A DNA stretch of 34,929 nt from a candidate division WOR-3 bacterium (GTDB lineage Bacteria > Hydrothermota > Tepidihabitantia > Tepidihabitantales > Tepidihabitantaceae). Below, in pieces: positions 39-34,929 of the stretch. Location: positions 1 through 34,929 of the forward strand of contig CBFGIT010000025.1 of assembly GCA_965648905.1 (NCBI GenBank), given 5' to 3'. The notes beneath the pieces are model-generated. The model did not search any database and was not told the origin of the DNA. It was given only the letters and a program-made list of their open reading frames with translations. Position 1 is the stretch's first letter, and each line of letters opens with the position of its first letter. Made by a program: the position numbers and the translations under genes.

Positions 39-96
39 CGAATGGGGCCCACGGCTATGCCAGAAATGGCCGGCCTCTGACCAGAGAGTTCCTCCT

Positions 97-372
97 GCGG
101 CTTGCGGCGCGGATTGGAAGGCGGCTTGCCGAGCGACGCCCGAAGCGGCTTGGCAAGCGACGCCCGAAGCGACTCAGGCTGCGCACCCGAGAGCGCAGTG
201 CCGAGCCGCAAGGAGAGCCGAAAGGGCTGCGCCTCGGGTCGCGACAGTCGCCGGGGCTCGGGCCACGCCGGCCTGAGCCGCGGCCCAAGCCGCAGGGAAA
301 GCCGCGCCGAGAGCGCTTCAGGGTTCGCTCCGGGTAGCGGTTCCCTGAGCCGTATAGGGAACCGTTCCCCCC
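97..372. repeat. Degenerate 12-bp periodic tandem array A (23 units)
   Basis: In-phase 12-mers, most starting GC[GC]: gcggcttgcggc gcggattggaag gcggcttgccga gcgacgcccgaa gcggcttggcaa gcgacgcccgaa gcgactcaggct ... gccgtataggga. Confidence 0.8.
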
Positions 373-526
373 GGGGGGTCTGAATGCCGGCCCATTTTCA
401 GCTAACTCCTTGATACTCAGAGTTTTGAGCCTCAAAACCGGCCAAATCGCCATTATACAATCCTGCAGGGTGCCCTTGAGCCGCTACTCGTGAAGCATAC
501 CCAGACCGCATCGATGTGCGGTCGGG

Positions 527-2602
527 TCAGCGTCGGAGCACGAGTTTCCGCGTAGTGGTACGACCGTCGACGGTCAGTCTGAGCAGATAGACGCCAGCCG
601 GCATTGCGCCATGGTCAAGGGGGAGAGCGGAGTGATGAGCAATGAGTGATGAGTGATGAACGAGCCGACCTGAGGCGTCGTAGATGCTGAGGCGGGCACG
701 GTCGGATACGGGCGAGCCGGCAGAGGCAGCGAGCATGGCTAGAGCAGTCTGCCCGTTTGGGGACTGAAGTGTGCCAGGGCCCGAGCCCGCCAGGGTCGTT
801 TCCGTGACCGTGCAGGTCCAGAGTTCGCGGGTCTTGTTACCTTTGAGCGCGAAGAACCGGCCCGGTGTGCCGAACGGGTCAAGGCAGAGGTCGCCGCCGT
901 GGTTGACTCGCTTCTTGCGGCCGGTCGTGCCGAACGAGGGTATCGTGTCTTTCTCAGTCCAGGTGCTCGTGGCCGGGTCGAAGACCCAGAACTCGCCGGT
1001 GTTGCCGCCCTTGAGCGCGTAAATCCTGCCGTTGTAGACCGCGGCGCTTGAGCCGTCTTTGGCTTTCTTCTTCCGGCCCGCAGAGTTGTAGAGCGGGAGT
1101 GCGGGCAGGGGTGTGGTTGACCATTTCTGGGTGGCGAGGTCGAAGGCGAAGAATTCGTGGTAGCCGGCTTTGTGGCAGTAGATTCTGTCGCCGACATGGG
1201 CGAGCCAGGAGCCGTACTTGTACTTTGGTTTGGTGCCGGCCGGAGCGTTTTCGAGTTGCTGCCATCGGCCGGCCGCGATGTCGTAGCGGTAGAACTCGGT
1301 CAGCTCGCCTTTGAGCAGGTAAAGGTGGCCTTCACCGGAGTCGGCCGAAGTCGGCACGTAGACAAGGTCGGACCCGCCCTTGACGTTCTTACCGCTGGGC
1401 CCGGGTGGTACGCGGTCGAGTGCCGACCACGTGCCTGATGGAATGTCATAACACAAAAACCAGTGGGTGTTGTTGCCGAGCACGACATAGACCCGGCGGC
1501 CGGCACAGACGCCGCGACCGCCCTTGTCGGTCTCGTTCGGGCCGGGTGTGCCCTGGCCCAGTCCGAGCAGCACGGCCCAGGAGTCGGTGAGCGGGTTGTA
1601 GGAGTAGAAGTCGCCGGTCTTCTGGCCCTTGGCGGCGTAGATTAGTCCGTTGGCTTCGCAGGCGGCCAGCCAGCCGCCGCGCTTGACGTCTTTGCCTGAA
1701 GGCTGCAAAGGCATGGGGCACTTCTCGGTCCAGCGGCTCGGGCTGGGCGGAGGTTCTTTGACCTGGAAGGGAAGCGCAACTGAGTTGTTGGCCGGCCAGG
1801 TGTCGCCCGGCTGGTACACGCTGCAGCGGGCGACAAACCGGCCGAGCCGGGCGGTCCACGAGGCGAAGTTCAGGGTGAGCGAGTCGCCGGGCAGAACGAG
1901 CGTTTGAACCGAGTCGGAAAGGTAGGCGGTGCGAAGCTGGATGTCGTCAAGACAGATGCCGGTGCCGGCCTGGCCGCTGCGCATCCGGTACTGGAACCCG
2001 ATGTACACCCAGGTGTCGCCGACCGACGAGAAATCGGCCCAGCCGGGCAGGTAGATGGAATTGTTGAAGTCGAAGGCCTGAAGCAGGTGAATGAAAGACG
2101 CCGGCGATGAGTCGGCAAGCGAGACCCGGACACGGAGCGATTCCATCTGCGGCCCCAGTGCCCGGAACCAGAAGAAGAGCGTGTCGCGGGCGGTGACCTT
2201 CACCCGGGGCGAGATGAGCCAGTCGTCGTTGTCGAGCAGGGTTACCTCGCGCCGGCAGGCGGCATGATTGGGCGGAGTAAGCGGGAACGAGCTGTCGCGC
2301 AGCCAGGTTGAACTGCCACCATCCATGTCAAACACCTGCCAGTTGGCCGGGGGCCAGAGCAGTGAGTCGGTGAACGACTCCAGTATGCCGCCGCCGGGCC
2401 GTTCAATCGAGAAGAAGGTGGTGATGCTGTCGGCGGAGTCGCCGAAGTTGGCAATCCGGGCACGGGGCTGCATCAGGCCCGGATTGATTTCGCTTGTCGG
2501 GGCGATGATACCGACAACGCCGGCATCAGGCCCGGCCTGCAATGACGCGGGCACGAGCAGTGCTGTCAGGACGAACCGGCTGAGCCATCGGCAAGAGAAC
2601 AT
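527..2602 (-). CDS. Secreted protein: Ig/CARDB-like domain with nested cleaved-adhesin-like domain, Kelch-like beta-propeller and C-terminal T9SS/FlgD-like sorting domain
   Basis: Signal peptide (…ASLQA); DDWLISP and LDDI adhesin motifs; repeated LKG..T.EF and K.VKGG Kelch-like blades; C-terminus IYDASGRLV…AGVYLLRL…TRKLVLRR; AGGAG upstream of ATG. Confidence 0.8.
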   Translation of the reverse strand: MFSCRWLSRFVLTALLVPASLQAGPDAGVVGIIAPTSEINPGLMQPRARIANFGDSADSITTFFSIERPGGGILESFTDSLLWPPANWQVFDMDGGSSTWLRDSSFPLTPPNHAACRREVTLLDNDDWLISPRVKVTARDTLFFWFRALGPQMESLRVRVSLADSSPASFIHLLQAFDFNNSIYLPGWADFSSVGDTWVYIGFQYRMRSGQAGTGICLDDIQLRTAYLSDSVQTLVLPGDSLTLNFASWTARLGRFVARCSVYQPGDTWPANNSVALPFQVKEPPPSPSRWTEKCPMPLQPSGKDVKRGGWLAACEANGLIYAAKGQKTGDFYSYNPLTDSWAVLLGLGQGTPGPNETDKGGRGVCAGRRVYVVLGNNTHWFLCYDIPSGTWSALDRVPPGPSGKNVKGGSDLVYVPTSADSGEGHLYLLKGELTEFYRYDIAAGRWQQLENAPAGTKPKYKYGSWLAHVGDRIYCHKAGYHEFFAFDLATQKWSTTPLPALPLYNSAGRKKKAKDGSSAAVYNGRIYALKGGNTGEFWVFDPATSTWTEKDTIPSFGTTGRKKRVNHGGDLCLDPFGTPGRFFALKGNKTRELWTCTVTETTLAGSGPGTLQSPNGQTALAMLAASAGSPVSDRARLSIYDASGRLVHHSSLIAHHSALPLDHGAMPAGVYLLRLTVDGRTTTRKLVLRR
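631..665. repeat. Heptamer micro-array within the C-terminal domain of the Kelch protein
   Basis: agtgatg agcaatg agtgatg agtgatg aacgagc; read on the minus strand as HHSSLIAHH. Confidence 0.65.
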
Positions 2603-2703
2603 GCCACGCTCCTTTGTTCAGTCTGGGCTGGGTGGTCGGTACAGGGAACGGCGATGCAAGTCCGGTTTGATGGGACTGACGTGAATGTAGACATCGCCAA
2701 GAC

Positions 2704-2731
2704 ATAGTACCACATGGCCCGGCGTTGTCTA
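2704..2731 (-). promoter_or_regulatory. sigma70-like promoter of the Kelch gene
   Basis: TAGACA-N16-TACTAT with extended -10 TG on the minus strand. Confidence 0.55.
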
Positions 2732-2763
2732 TGTCGGCTTGGTTGCCCGGCGCAACAATACGT

Positions 2764-3342
2764 CTAGCGGACTTCGGCGAATTTGGGGCGGGCGAACACG
2801 ACCCGGCCGACGTCGGTGTCGAGCGCGCCGCTGATGACGACCTCGATCTCGTTGCCCAGGAATCCGGCCGCGTGTTCGACCACGACCTTGACGCCGCCCT
2901 CGAGGTAGCCGATACCTTCGTTCTTCTCCTTGCCTTTCTTGGTAATCCGCAGCTTCAGCTCGGTGCCGGGCAGGTAGGTCGGCTTGAAGAACTGGTAGAT
3001 GTCGAGGGTCAGGATCGCGGGCAGCGGTGCCGCGGCCGCCTTCAGGTCGGCGCACGAGGTGATGAGCAGGGCCTTGTTGCGACGCAGGGCAGCGAGCAGA
3101 CCTTCCCGCGTGGTCAGCTTTCGGTCGAGTTTGACCGTAATTCCCTTGATTGCCTTGAGCCGGTCAATCGTTTCCCAGGCCCGGCGACTTCGGTGGTCGT
3201 TTTCGCCGTCGGTCTTGACCGCGGGCGGTTCGGGAAGCAGGAACTGCCCGGTGACCAGTCCGAGTGCGAGAAACTCGGCAATTCGCGGGTCGCTCATCGT
3301 GTCAATGTCCATGACAAACGTCTTCTTAGCACCAAAGAGCAT
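2764..3342 (-). CDS. YacL-like PIN/TRAM protein, soluble, with degenerate PIN
   Basis: C-terminal TRAM (LPGTELKLRITKKGKEKNEGIGYLEGGVKVVVE…GRVVFAR); directly downstream of radA as for yacL; start placed at MLFGAKK after GGAGGA. Confidence 0.8.
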   Translation of the reverse strand: MLFGAKKTFVMDIDTMSDPRIAEFLALGLVTGQFLLPEPPAVKTDGENDHRSRRAWETIDRLKAIKGITVKLDRKLTTREGLLAALRRNKALLITSCADLKAAAAPLPAILTLDIYQFFKPTYLPGTELKLRITKKGKEKNEGIGYLEGGVKVVVEHAAGFLGNEIEVVISGALDTDVGRVVFARPKFAEVR

Positions 3343-32497: not shown

Positions 32498-32800
32498 GCG
32501 GCCCGCAGGTCGCGGCTTGCCTTCCGCTTGCGGATTCGCGTCTTGCTCGCGCCTCGACGTCGGCGCTGCTCTGAGGCTAGCTTCCAGTTCTGGTTTCAGG
32601 CCCGGGTTCCAGCGCGGACCTGGGTCTGCCCGCCAGCCTGCAATCCCCTCTGCTTGGGCGCACGCTGACAACCCTGCTGTCCCATGTGGCTGGCGTCCCG
32701 GAGTTCTGCCTGCCGGTCAGCCTGCCAAGGCGGACGACGGGCGACCTGCCTTCTCGTTTGCTGGTCGGTTTGGTGGGGGAAGTGACTCCCGGAGTCGTTC
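32498..32800. repeat. Degenerate 12-bp periodic array B
   Basis: From 32592: ggtttcaggccc gggttccagcgc ggacctgggtct gcccgccagcct gcaatcccctct gcttgggcgcac gctgacaaccct …; 17 consecutive units start with G and most end in Y. Confidence 0.65.
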
Positions 32801-32989
32801 CCGACACCAGAACCAAGACCAGACTCAGAATGCGATTCACGGGCCTAAGCCCGGGTACTACCCGAATTAGGTCAAGTACTGCATGGCTTGGAGCTTGGTC
32901 AGGGTCCGGTCCATCTCCGGAGTCCTCAAGCTGCAGGCCGTCAGCCGTAAGCTGCCAGCCGCCAGCTTCCGACCACGGAGTGTCAGTTT

Positions 32990-33361
32990 CGTCCCACCCA
33001 GCAGCTCACCCGGCAGCCGGAAGGGCAGCCCGAAGGGCTGGTCCCGGGCCCTTCCCCAGGCCATATCTGCCGCCACTTGCGGCTGCATTTCAAACTCGAT
33101 TACCGATTCGCTATCCAGTTCTCCCACCAACTTCCTGACGCGTTCGATAGCGCATTCACTGGCCAGTTCTCTCTTGAGTTTCACGGCCAGTTCTCCAGCC
33201 AATTGCACAGCTAAGTCCATCGCCAATTCCATTCCCATTCGCGTCACCAACTGCGTTCTGGATTCCACTACCAATTCCATCACCAACGGCCTTTCGCGTT
33301 GCATCACCAGCAGCATTTCCGGTTTCCTGTTCGATTCCAGAAGCACGACCAGGCCAGGAGG
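32990..33361. repeat. Degenerate 12-bp periodic array C (31 units, core consensus about CATCACCAATTC)
   Basis: catcgccaattc cattcccattcg cgtcaccaactg cgttctggattc cactaccaattc catcaccaacgg … in unbroken phase. Confidence 0.8.
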
Positions 33362-33609
33362 GTGTCGGAATACCCCCGCCGAGCGGCAGGGGACCACCCT
33401 AGTGGACAGCACCGCGCCCTTCGACCGCAGCCCATCGTAACGTGTCAGTCTTGTCAATGGTTTCTCCGACAGGCTCCTGGTGAGAAGGCCTGGGTCAGTT
33501 TGGGCAATCCATCCTCCGGTCTGATGTTGAGGAGCACGTTGTCCTCCAGTGGTTGCTGGAGTAAGTCCGCCCAGAAAGTTGCGGTTCTGGAGTTGGAGCG
33601 ACATATCAT

Positions 33610-33638
33610 TTGACAACCGGCCCGACTTGCGCTATAAC
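33610..33638 (+). promoter_or_regulatory. Possible sigma70-like promoter
   Basis: TTGACA-N17-TATAAC. Confidence 0.45.
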
Positions 33639-33761: not shown

Positions 33762-33789
33762 TTGACACCGCCCCGGCCCTGCCTATCAT
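33762..33789 (+). promoter_or_regulatory. sigma70-like promoter upstream of the lipoprotein gene
   Basis: TTGACA-N16-TATCAT. Confidence 0.65.
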
Positions 33790-33891: not shown

Positions 33892-34527
33892 ATGCGTAAC
33901 CTGGTCGCTATCGCCGTGCTGGCACTGATTGTGCTCATGGCCGGCAGTTGCGGCAAGTCAACCCGGGCCGGCAGCCCGACCGACTACTATCCATTGACCG
34001 TCGGCAGCGTCTGGAAGTACCGGCTCTGCAAGCACGACAGCACCGGCAAACCAGACGTCGAACAACCGATGCAGCGGTCCACCGTCCGAATTGCCGCCAA
34101 GGACAAGCTGGCCAGCGGGGAAGAAGCGGTCATGGTCGTCACCCAGAATGAACTGCCATATGTCTTCGTCGAGACGACCTTTGTGCGCCAGTCCGGTGGG
34201 TACATACTTGAGTTCCGGAAACGTGACAGCGAGCACTGCGACACACTGCTCGCCGTGCCGCCCGCGCAAGGCAAATGCTGGCATCGCGTGTTCTCGGTCG
34301 CGATCCCAATCGCGGTTCGATTCGCCGACCAGCAGGCAGTAACCGTCAAGGCCGGTACTTTTCCTCAGGCCTGGCATACCGTCGAAGAGTCGGAATCCCT
34401 CCGCGTCAAAGCCAGTTCCTGGTATGCGCCCGGTGTCGGGTTGGTCAAGTACTATTCCGAGACCGCGACGAAAGACGGCAGCACCTTCGCGGCGACGTAC
34501 GAATTGACCGGCGCCAGCGTCAAGTAA
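33892..34527 (+). CDS. Hypothetical lipoprotein (beta-rich, DUF3108/TapB-like)
   Basis: Lipobox MAGSC; DYYPLTVGSVWKY, VTVKAGTF, WYAPGVGLVK motifs; GAGAGG RBS. Confidence 0.75.
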   Translation: MRNLVAIAVLALIVLMAGSCGKSTRAGSPTDYYPLTVGSVWKYRLCKHDSTGKPDVEQPMQRSTVRIAAKDKLASGEEAVMVVTQNELPYVFVETTFVRQSGGYILEFRKRDSEHCDTLLAVPPAQGKCWHRVFSVAIPIAVRFADQQAVTVKAGTFPQAWHTVEESESLRVKASSWYAPGVGLVKYYSETATKDGSTFAATYELTGASVK

Positions 34528-34929
34528 GGTACACGGAGTGCCAGACCGTCTTGACAGGGCGGCAATTGGTGGGCAATCGGTGACGCTAGACCATTCTCGC
34601 CCCGCGCACAGACACCGCCCCGGCCGAGCGTGCGGCCATCGGGGCAAGAGAGGTCGGCGCTAGTCGGTTGCTCACAGACGAGAGGAGAGCGCGGCCATAG
34701 CGGCCTACACGAAGGCCTCTATGGTTGGCGACTACGTGAACGAGGGTGCGTCGTGGAACCTCGCGCTGACCTTCAAGGAGGTCGAGAATTCTGGGGACGG
34801 GTTTGTTAGTCAAGCCGTGCGTTAGCTGCTCTCCCCTGAGACAAGGCTGACGACGGCGTCGGCCCATTTCTTGCTGCCCTGCCGCTTTCGATCGGTGTGA
34901 TGGCATGCTGCGACCGTGGGTCGCCCCCA

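What the first reader, a model, noticed from the sequence alone, without database searches (positions are those of the whole stretch)
32990..33361. Array C: second 12-bp array with a different consensus but the same architecture
Seen: 31 in-phase 12-mers drifting from GC-rich units (cagccggaaggg, cagcccgaaggg) to a core near CATCACCAATTC, strongly C/T-skewed on plus. The minus strand reads x-E-L-x tetrapeptides (MELAMDLAVQLAGELAVKLKRELASE); a plus frame reads S-I-x-N. Like array A it is followed by a C-run/G-run (TACCCCCG…GGGG) and then CCCAT…TAAC…TCA..GTTT. Same period, similar length and similar right flank but unrelated unit sequence suggests a shared generating mechanism rather than simple duplication (inference). 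This is the best candidate for an undescribed system here.
Basis: partly seen in the sequence, partly recalled or inferred. Interest (0 to 1): 0.8.

Follow-up and report, generated by a model that had tools for sequence, protein, structure and literature searches.

The report
Orphan 12-base DNA track, capsid-linked
This stretch is one of about 80 tracts in this bacterium, nearly all outside genes, that keep an exact 12-base rhythm with unrelated repeat words; it is likely a landing track (or footprint) for chromosomal relatives of the archaeal-virus coat protein that wraps DNA 12 base pairs at a time, although no such gene lies beside this copy.

Summary
Array C is real: 31 in-phase 12-mers, lag-12 identity 0.50 against 0.30 in shuffles, the strongest of 78 period-12 tracts in this genome. 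The 249-aa ORF is a shadow frame: no homologue, poor codon usage, and its 5' part is a broken IS481-like end. The tracts fall into many families with unrelated units. Copies keep the 12-phase (net indel a multiple of 12 in 16 of 24 pairs; consensus positions diverge less). Tracts occur across the order (31 in 1.37 Mb) and hardly outside it (1 in 0.93 Mb). The same order encodes many homologues of the SIRV2/Adnaviria capsid protein (55 of 55 genomes, 0 of 171 outside), whose viral relatives hold 12 bp per dimer. Tracts are enriched beside some subfamilies of these genes. Best reading (about 0.5): a track for these proteins; binding is untested. Array C is an orphan: a singleton, no capsid-like gene nearby, a decayed right-hand cap and uncertain polarity. 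The scan found this class before on other DNA of this genome; I took the capsid lead from those notes and re-tested it.

The parts
32990..33361 (.). Array C: 31 degenerate 12-bp units in phase; best core 33074-33337; recurring marks C at unit positions 1 (24/31) and 6 (25/31), C or G at position 12 (28/31)
32990..33073 (-). GC-rich distal units; possibly a decayed leader of the H-type arrays, which precede a capsid-like gene elsewhere (unresolved)
   Evidence: pairwise p 0.01-0.11; profile search negative
33360..33375 (.). G-run/C-run dyad closing the array (GGGTGT-CGGA-ATACCC)
   Evidence: sequence; similar G/C-run dyads end other arrays, but not matched by the learned motif
33375..33477 (+). 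Dispersed 'I-type' flank, about 72% identical to C41:19426, C4:38414 and C3:31507, none of which carries a long array on that side
33437..33465 (.). Decayed dyad cap (TAA-N4-TTGA-spacer-TCAA-N4-TTA type, 5-bp spacer); IHF-site-like halves
   Evidence: score 8.0 here, 15.1 and 14.2 at the aligned place in C41 and C4, 5.1 in C3; 99th percentile 12.5
33480..33603 (-). Truncated left end of an IS481-like element; fuller copy with an rve/HTH transposase at C17:43.5-44.9 kb; it supplies the 5' part of the 249-aa ORF
   Evidence: 89% over 118 bp; Pfam rve, rve_3, HTH_28 below cut-off
32867..33616 (-). 249-aa shadow ORF spanning IS end, I-flank, array C, heptamer run and the tail of array B; judged non-coding
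   Evidence: no Pfam, no homologue, CAI 0.48 against 0.66-0.74 for six genes of the window
32937..32966 (.). Heptamer run bordering the left end of array C; similar runs in genomes G010, G018, G024
32500..32900 (+). Array B (family of 4 in this genome) with its G-run double dyad (32774-32803) and TAA-N18-TTA cap (32846-32869); shares the same 1.5-kb spacer
33610..33638 (+). Promoter-like TTGACA-17 bp-TATAAC just outside the IS end, facing the lipoprotein-like gene at 33892
   Evidence: sequence; not called by the scanner, which needs a final T and called a second site at 33762-33789

Best explanation
Array C is an orphan copy of an order-wide class of intergenic DNA tracts that hold an exact 12-bp phase, and it likely serves (or once served) as a track on which chromosomally encoded homologues of the Adnaviria major capsid protein would polymerise, one dimer per 12 bp. 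Shown: the class, its phase-keeping evolution, the capsid-protein family, their matching taxonomic range and local enrichment. Inferred: a protein bound at the polar leader (an IHF/HU-like bender at the dyad cap and/or the HTH-capsid fusion) would nucleate a short filament of about 20-40 dimers. That filament would wrap the tract, and selection or in-register conversion would keep the marks in phase. Different paralogues would likely prefer different marks, which would explain unrelated units. The likely output is local control of the neighbouring promoter or local chromosome structure. In array C the leader is decayed and an IS fragment has replaced what followed, so this copy may be a relic.
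For: Class: 78 tracts at score >=0.15 against 0 in a shuffled genome, 71 of 78 not inside a stop-free frame of 300 aa or more. Besides 7/14, only 12 and its harmonics give many arrays; periods 10, 11, 13, 15 and 18 give none. Phase is kept: net indel between related copies is a multiple of 12 in 16 of 24 pairs, and the 8 exceptions break phase only 230 bp or more from the leader, while 0 of 20 leader indels are multiples of 12. Consensus-matching positions diverge less in 5 of 5 families, and new alleles lean towards the unit consensus in 4 of 5 (p 0.006, 0.0005, 0.02, 0.04; F 0.40). Protein: profiles hit SFV1, SSRV1, SIRV2 and AFV1 capsid chains (E 1e-7 to 7e-4). The model (pLDDT 94) has 3j9x and 6wq0 as top folds (TM 0.77, 0.72; E 0.002, 0.013). 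AFV1 holds 12 bp per repeat (PMC5517147, passages). Range: the family is in 55 of 55 genomes of the order and 0 of 171 outside. Tracts number 31 in 1.37 Mb inside (6 of 8 genomes) and 1 weak hit within a long open frame in 0.93 Mb outside (7 genomes). Neighbourhood: 5 of 10 testable capsid-like loci in this genome have a tract within 900 bp upstream against 4.6% of 1491 long ORFs; in three other families 7 of 23 hits have one upstream and 10 of 27 downstream. HTH-capsid fusions sit behind array, G/C-run, cap and promoter. Array C's unit profile best matches the H-type arrays, which precede a capsid-like gene.
Against: No binding is shown. Co-occurrence is one phylogenetic event, and two genomes of the order with 4-5 capsid-like genes gave no tract in 200 and 111 kb. 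The conserved core subfamily is not linked to tracts (1 of 31 upstream, 0 of 36 downstream). Only 3 of the 78 strong tracts lie within 1 kb of a capsid-like gene, and none of the family's hits is on array C's contig. There is no universal mark across 47 families, and no excess dyad symmetry that a two-fold dimer might favour (7 of 47 against 8 of 47 for a mirror control; array C p 0.44). The cap also occurs in a genome without the capsid family (7 sites against 0 control in G060). Viral capsid proteins coat whole genomes without known sequence preference (my own knowledge). H-type homology of array C fails a profile test.
Confidence: 0.5

Rival explanations
1. Footprint rather than track: a protein lattice with a 12-bp step (likely the same capsid-like family) biases slippage and conversion to whole steps, so any DNA next to a nucleation site is turned into a 12-bp array with no selected function of the array itself.
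For: Unrelated units in 47 families; similarity between units falls with distance in array C; whole-unit indels among units only about 40-50% alike; copies of array C's right flank without a long array.
Against: Consensus positions diverge less and are held over long divergence, as selection would give, though in-register conversion could mimic this.
Confidence: 0.17
2. Selfish or neutral dispersed repeats (MITE/REPIN-like or microsatellite-derived, kin to the heptamer repeats), copied by a transposase such as the RAYT-like Y1 enzyme; the capsid link is hitch-hiking of cassettes.
For: Families of 10-16 near-copies; G-run dyads resemble the motifs flanking the Y1 transposase at C3:109286; 52 heptamer arrays and 11 four-helix-bundle hits in the same genome.
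Against: Only 4 of 78 tracts have that REP-like motif within 300 bp; array C does not fold better than shuffles (z -0.52); no terminal inverted arms seen; does not explain strict phase keeping or the order-limited range.
Confidence: 0.18
3. The tracts are binding arrays for another repeat-reading factor (for example the HTH domain of the HTH-capsid fusions, or an IHF/HU-organised complex) and the match to 12 bp per dimer is coincidence.
For: IHF-like dyad caps beside 59 of 101 arrays (motif trained on the same set); two HU/IHF-family genes; HTH fusions beside arrays.
Against: The marks are 2-4 bp, too little for usual HTH sites, and 12 bp does not keep sites on one face of B-DNA (my own knowledge).
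Confidence: 0.08
4. Array C encodes a short x-E-L-x tetrapeptide-repeat protein (for example from the ATG at about 33320, which has an AGGA 8 nt upstream).
For: The minus frame is open through the array.
Against: No homologue; CAI 0.49 within the array; synonymous positions are fixed at DNA level (fourth-codon four-fold sites G 12, A 2, C 0, T 0; first-codon Glu GAA 10 to GAG 1); the frame is a chimera of unrelated elements; sister families carry stops in their tetrapeptide frames.
Confidence: 0.05
5. Units are written by a reverse transcriptase or primase from a template, as in telomerase-like or CRISPR-like growth.
For: Polar leader plus array; the genome has two RTs.
Against: One RT sits in a DGR-like locus (Avd-like gene, template repeat, RT, target genes) and the other looks like a group II intron RT; units are heterogeneous; indels between copies are spread along the body, not at one end.
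Confidence: 0.02

Closest known systems
Nucleocapsids of Adnaviria (SIRV2 3j9x, SSRV1 6wq0, SFV1 6d5f, AFV1 5w7g/3fbz/3fbl; Pfam PF12193)
   Same: Homologous alpha-helical protein by sequence profile and predicted fold; 12 bp of DNA per repeat in AFV1 (PMC5517147) equals the array period.
   Different: Bacterial chromosome, 2 to 49 hits per genome, HTH fusions, non-coding tracts of about 200-500 bp instead of a packaged genome. PMC10848233 (passages) calls the capsid protein unique and says adnavirians do not appear connected to viruses of bacteria.
REP/REPIN/BIME elements with RAYT, including IHF-binding BIMEs (recalled; BIME passage in PMC6907758)
   Same: Intergenic dispersed families, short dyads, IHF-like sites, a Y1 transposase in the genome.
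   Different: Long phased body, no fold-back structure, the genome's REP-like motif is near only 4 of 78 tracts.
Short-period intergenic repeats (cyanobacterial STRR heptamers and kin; recalled, and named in earlier scan notes)
   Same: Degenerate tandem units between genes; heptamer runs lie next to array C.
   Different: Period 12, single polar tracts with a leader rather than mirror-image arms, phase maintained, confined to one order in my samples.
CRISPR leader plus array (recalled)
   Same: Polar leader with IHF-like site next to a fixed-period array.
   Different: No repeat-spacer alternation, period 12, no Rfam match, no polar growth.

Membership tests
Order-wide 12-bp phased tracts (class defined here) | Exact 12-bp phase over 15 or more degenerate units, intergenic | tested here: met
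Order-wide 12-bp phased tracts (class defined here) | Polar leader: G/C-run dyad then TAA...TTA cap | tested here: inconclusive
   cap decayed (p about 0.1) but strong in 2 of 3 homologous flanks; G-run motif not matched; possible H-type leader at the other end
Order-wide 12-bp phased tracts (class defined here) | Adjacent capsid-like gene (true of a minority) | tested here: not met
   no hit on contig C25; 3 of 78 strong tracts have one within 1 kb
Adnaviria-type nucleocapsid | SIRV2-fold capsid protein encoded | tested here: met
   elsewhere in the genome, not at this locus
Adnaviria-type nucleocapsid | Dimer wraps A-form DNA at 12 bp per step | not testable with these tools
   known for AFV1; untested for the bacterial proteins
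Adnaviria-type nucleocapsid | Part of a linear viral genome or provirus | not tested
   no systematic provirus search; array C lies between a C25 peptidase gene and a lipoprotein-like gene on a contig of housekeeping genes
REPIN/BIME | Paired REPs of the resident RAYT forming a hairpin | tested here: not met
CRISPR array | Conserved repeats of about 23-50 bp with unique spacers | tested here: not met
Tetrapeptide-repeat protein gene | Homologues, genome-like codon usage, free wobble positions | tested here: not met
Structured RNA | Folding better than shuffles or Rfam match | tested here: not met
   z -0.52 for the plus strand only; one chance-level Rfam hit, E 0.78

The most novel reading that the evidence does not exclude
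One bacterial order has domesticated (or is the cellular source of) the DNA-wrapping coat protein of archaeal filamentous viruses as a programmable chromatin system. Paralogues and HTH fusions nucleate at leaders and polymerise along 12-bp-phased tracks written into about 80 intergenic sites, converting them locally to a capsid-like, possibly A-form, filament that controls neighbouring promoters. Array C is one such track, of the H unit type, orphaned by an IS insertion.
Probability: 0.4. Interest if true: 0.93.

Novelty: categorically new. Interest (0 to 1): 0.76.

Why it matters
The Adnaviria capsid protein is described as unique to viruses of archaea (PMC10848233, passages). A bacterial order with many chromosomal homologues, plus DNA tracts whose period equals the protein's step, would give a cellular counterpart for that capsid fold and a new way of marking chromosome sites for a protein coat by rhythm rather than by a word. 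It is directly testable in vitro with small proteins and 400-bp DNAs. Array C adds a strong, independent unit type and shows that tracks persist without an adjacent gene, but by itself it is a decayed, orphan member.

Tried and rejected
Coding readings: Pfam, a 5.8-billion-protein search on residues 95-215 (near lengths only) and the ESM Atlas gave nothing. Orthologous locus: DNA search of 41 genomes matched only the IS end and the heptamer run, never the array; homologues of the two flanking genes were found, but the loci examined showed no array-C-like tract. The I-flank profile found only the four own copies and one weak G018 hit without an array in 61 genomes; an exact pattern scan of metagenomes found 0. 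Expression and strain variation: no RNA holder listed; the one DNA run did not cover the array. Dyad symmetry of units: no excess. H-family profile: no hit on array C, p 0.27 against unit shuffles. RT link: rejected from gene context. REP link: 4 of 78. Loci for capsid-like genes of G001, G003, G005, G010 and G027 were not obtained, so the neighbourhood test lacks the minor subfamilies of those genomes. Two key papers (DiMaio 2015, Krupovic 2021) are not held. No complex prediction was run, since DNA cannot be a partner there.

Full report
Observation. The 372 bp from 32990 to 33361 read as 31 units of 12 bp with no slip. Identity at lag 12 is 0.50, at 24 and 36 it is 0.47; 5000 codon shuffles give 0.296 +/- 0.024, maximum 0.389. 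Tandem Repeats Finder sees only fragments because units are about half identical. Column counts show C at positions 1 and 6 in 24 and 25 of 31 units and C or G at position 12 in 28 of 31. Neighbouring units are more alike than distant ones (Mantel r -0.19, p 0.002; -0.16, p 0.02 without the seven GC-rich units), so the drift is real. The skew is moderate (C+T 59%).

Setting. The window is the whole contig C25 of a 3.0-Mb, 62% GC genome; from its C25 peptidases and C-terminal sorting-like domains I take it to be WOR-3-like, which is my recall and comes from no call. Array C lies in a 1.5-kb spacer between a C25 peptidase gene and a lipoprotein-like gene. From left to right the spacer holds array B with its dyads and cap, a heptamer run, array C, a 100-bp flank shared at about 72% with three other places in the genome, and 124 bp of an IS end. 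The fuller IS copy on C17 encodes an rve/HTH protein and begins with TGT, IS481-like by my recall.

The ORF. The 249-aa minus frame runs across all these unrelated pieces. It has no Pfam match, no homologue among 231 candidates for its repeat part and no Atlas hit above 0.79. Its codon adaptation is 0.48 against 0.66-0.74 for six genes of the window. Synonymous positions are fixed in DNA: at four-fold sites of the fourth codon G 12, A 2, C 0, T 0, where neighbouring genes use C as well as G; Glu in the first codon is GAA 10 times and GAG once. I treat it as a shadow frame. The array does not fold better than shuffles on the plus strand (z -0.52) and has no meaningful Rfam match.

A genome-wide class. 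A period scan found 73 arrays of period 12 and 52 of period 7, but none at 10, 11, 13, 15 or 18 and one at 9. With a refined score there are 106 at 0.12 against 2 in a shuffled genome and 78 against 0 at 0.15; array C has the highest score (0.35) and no sister copy. The others form families of 16, 14, 14, 11, 10, 4, 3 and 3 copies plus singletons; a further cluster of 4 weak hits was left out of the family analyses. Most families end in a G-run/C-run dyad followed by a 25-bp dyad of type TAA-N4-TTGA-N3-TCAA-N4-TTA; the learned cap was found beside 59 of 101 arrays, a count inflated by training on the same set. Each half resembles the IHF consensus as I recall it; the one passage I read prints that motif in the H-NS row of a table, apparently swapped (PMC6907758). 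The GC mark of unrelated families sits at a nearly fixed phase to the cap (5 in A and D, 3 or 5 in F, mostly 0-1 in G); by hand from coordinates array C's mark is at 4, which fits but could be chance. The cap is not specific to the system: it is enriched in many relatives and also in G060, which lacks the capsid family.

The phase is maintained. Along minimum spanning trees of six families, 17 of 59 gaps in array bodies are 12, 24 or 36 bp and most others come in compensating pairs. The net shift is a multiple of 12 in 16 of 24 pairs with gaps, and all 8 exceptions break phase 230 bp or more from the leader. In leaders 0 of 20 gaps are multiples of 12 (63 of 69 members could be anchored). Positions that match the unit consensus diverge less than the rest in all five large families (for example 0.084 against 0.178 in D), and minor alleles lean towards the unit consensus in four of five. 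These tracts are therefore not simply decaying microsatellites. Array C, a singleton, cannot be tested this way.

The capsid link. Earlier notes of this scan on other contigs of this genome proposed that the tracts go with homologues of the Adnaviria major capsid protein; this changed my reading, and I tested it. PF12193 gave two weak hits. Iteration gave nine strong and three weak loci, one fused to an HTH. Profiles of 8 and 48 sequences hit SFV1, SSRV1, SIRV2 and AFV1 capsid chains with E 1e-7 to 7e-4. The AlphaFold model (pLDDT 94) has SIRV2 and SSRV1 as best folds, TM 0.77 and 0.72, though no match reached E 0.001. In AFV1 the DNA repeat is 12 bp (PMC5517147, passages). The family is in 55 of 55 genomes of the order and 0 of 171 others of the phylum. 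In sampled DNA, tracts at 0.15 number 31 in 1.37 Mb from 8 genomes of the order (none in G003 and G027) and 1, within a long open frame, in 0.93 Mb from 7 genomes outside. Locally, 5 of 10 testable capsid-like loci of this genome have a tract upstream (threshold 0.12) against 4.6% of 1491 long ORFs. In G025, G026 and G035, 7 of 23 hits have one upstream and 10 of 27 downstream (threshold 0.15), tandem genes not being independent. The best-scoring core subfamily in 29 loci from relatives of the own family almost never has one (1 of 31 and 0 of 36). HTH fusions in G035 and G025 lie behind array, G/C-run, cap and promoter. Against this, only 3 of 78 strong tracts here are within 1 kb of such a gene, 100 arrays fall into 47 families with no common mark, and units show no excess two-fold symmetry.

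Where array C fits. No capsid-like hit lies on its contig. Its right flank is a decayed cap: 8.0 bits with a 5-bp spacer (p about 0.1), but the aligned place scores 15.1 and 14.2 in the C41 and C4 copies, above the 99th percentile. Those copies have no long array on that side. Whatever followed the cap has been replaced by the IS fragment. On the other hand, the unit profile of array C scores best on the three H-type arrays of this genome and on an H-type array of G001, and H arrays precede a capsid-like gene or its stump.

Mechanism. I commit to a protein-lattice reading at about 0.5 for a selected track, and 0.17 more for a mutational footprint of the same lattice. Shown are the class, the kept phase, the protein family, the shared range and the local enrichment. 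Inferred are binding, nucleation at the leader, filament length and any regulatory output. Repeat-element (0.18), other-reader (0.08), coding (0.05) and RT (0.02) readings are set out among the rivals.

Novelty. PMC10848233 (passages) calls the capsid protein unique to Adnaviria. Eight full-text searches listed no paper whose title or abstract start describes bacterial homologues or 12-bp phased tracts; I saw listings only, and subscription papers and two key papers were not available. The scan itself has reported the class several times from this genome. On my own tests I class the system as categorically new if the link holds, and array C as an orphan, partly decayed member.

Noticed in passing
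G000:C3:87170-92428 (L022, L023): DGR-like locus: Avd-like gene, template repeat, 387-aa RT and two FGE-sulfatase-like target genes, one fused to a Ser/Thr kinase; short 8-bp-period ATCTG runs follow both targets; a period-12 array lies just downstream.
   Followed up: partly
G000:C3:109286-109954 (L019): RAYT-like Y1 transposase flanked by a REP-like motif; 25 near-matches to the motif genome-wide, some in tandem at contig ends.
   Followed up: partly
G000:C31:9147-10967 (L021): 607-aa RT frame that looks like a group II intron protein.
   Followed up: no
G000:C1:191956-192800 (L037): Two capsid-like domains in tandem in different frames behind an F-like array; C11:22916 and C21:28899 also look broken or truncated.
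   Followed up: partly
G000:C5:85809-86698; C8:6478-7329; C11:95773-96520: F and G arrays sit head to head with their caps between them.
   Followed up: no
window 45-378 and 32500-32900: Arrays A (family of 10) and B (family of 4) are members of the same class; B's cap is one base shorter than the common one.
   Followed up: partly
L267 (G026:C1) 2150-3000: Capsid-like gene pair, then a leader and TAA-marked 12-bp array, then a gene whose translation looks like HU (not searched).
   Followed up: no
L002, L009, L014 (G021 contig starts); G000 C2:103036, C14:57460: Ends or fragments of the same IS481-like element; contigs break at it, so it is probably multi-copy.
   Followed up: partly
genome-wide: 52 period-7 arrays and 11 four-helix-bundle (PF05635) hits coexist with the period-12 class.
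   Followed up: no
window 33762-33779 and 34613-34626: A short GACACCGCCCCGGCC word occurs on both sides of the lipoprotein-like gene 33892-34527; the first overlaps a promoter-like site.
   Followed up: no
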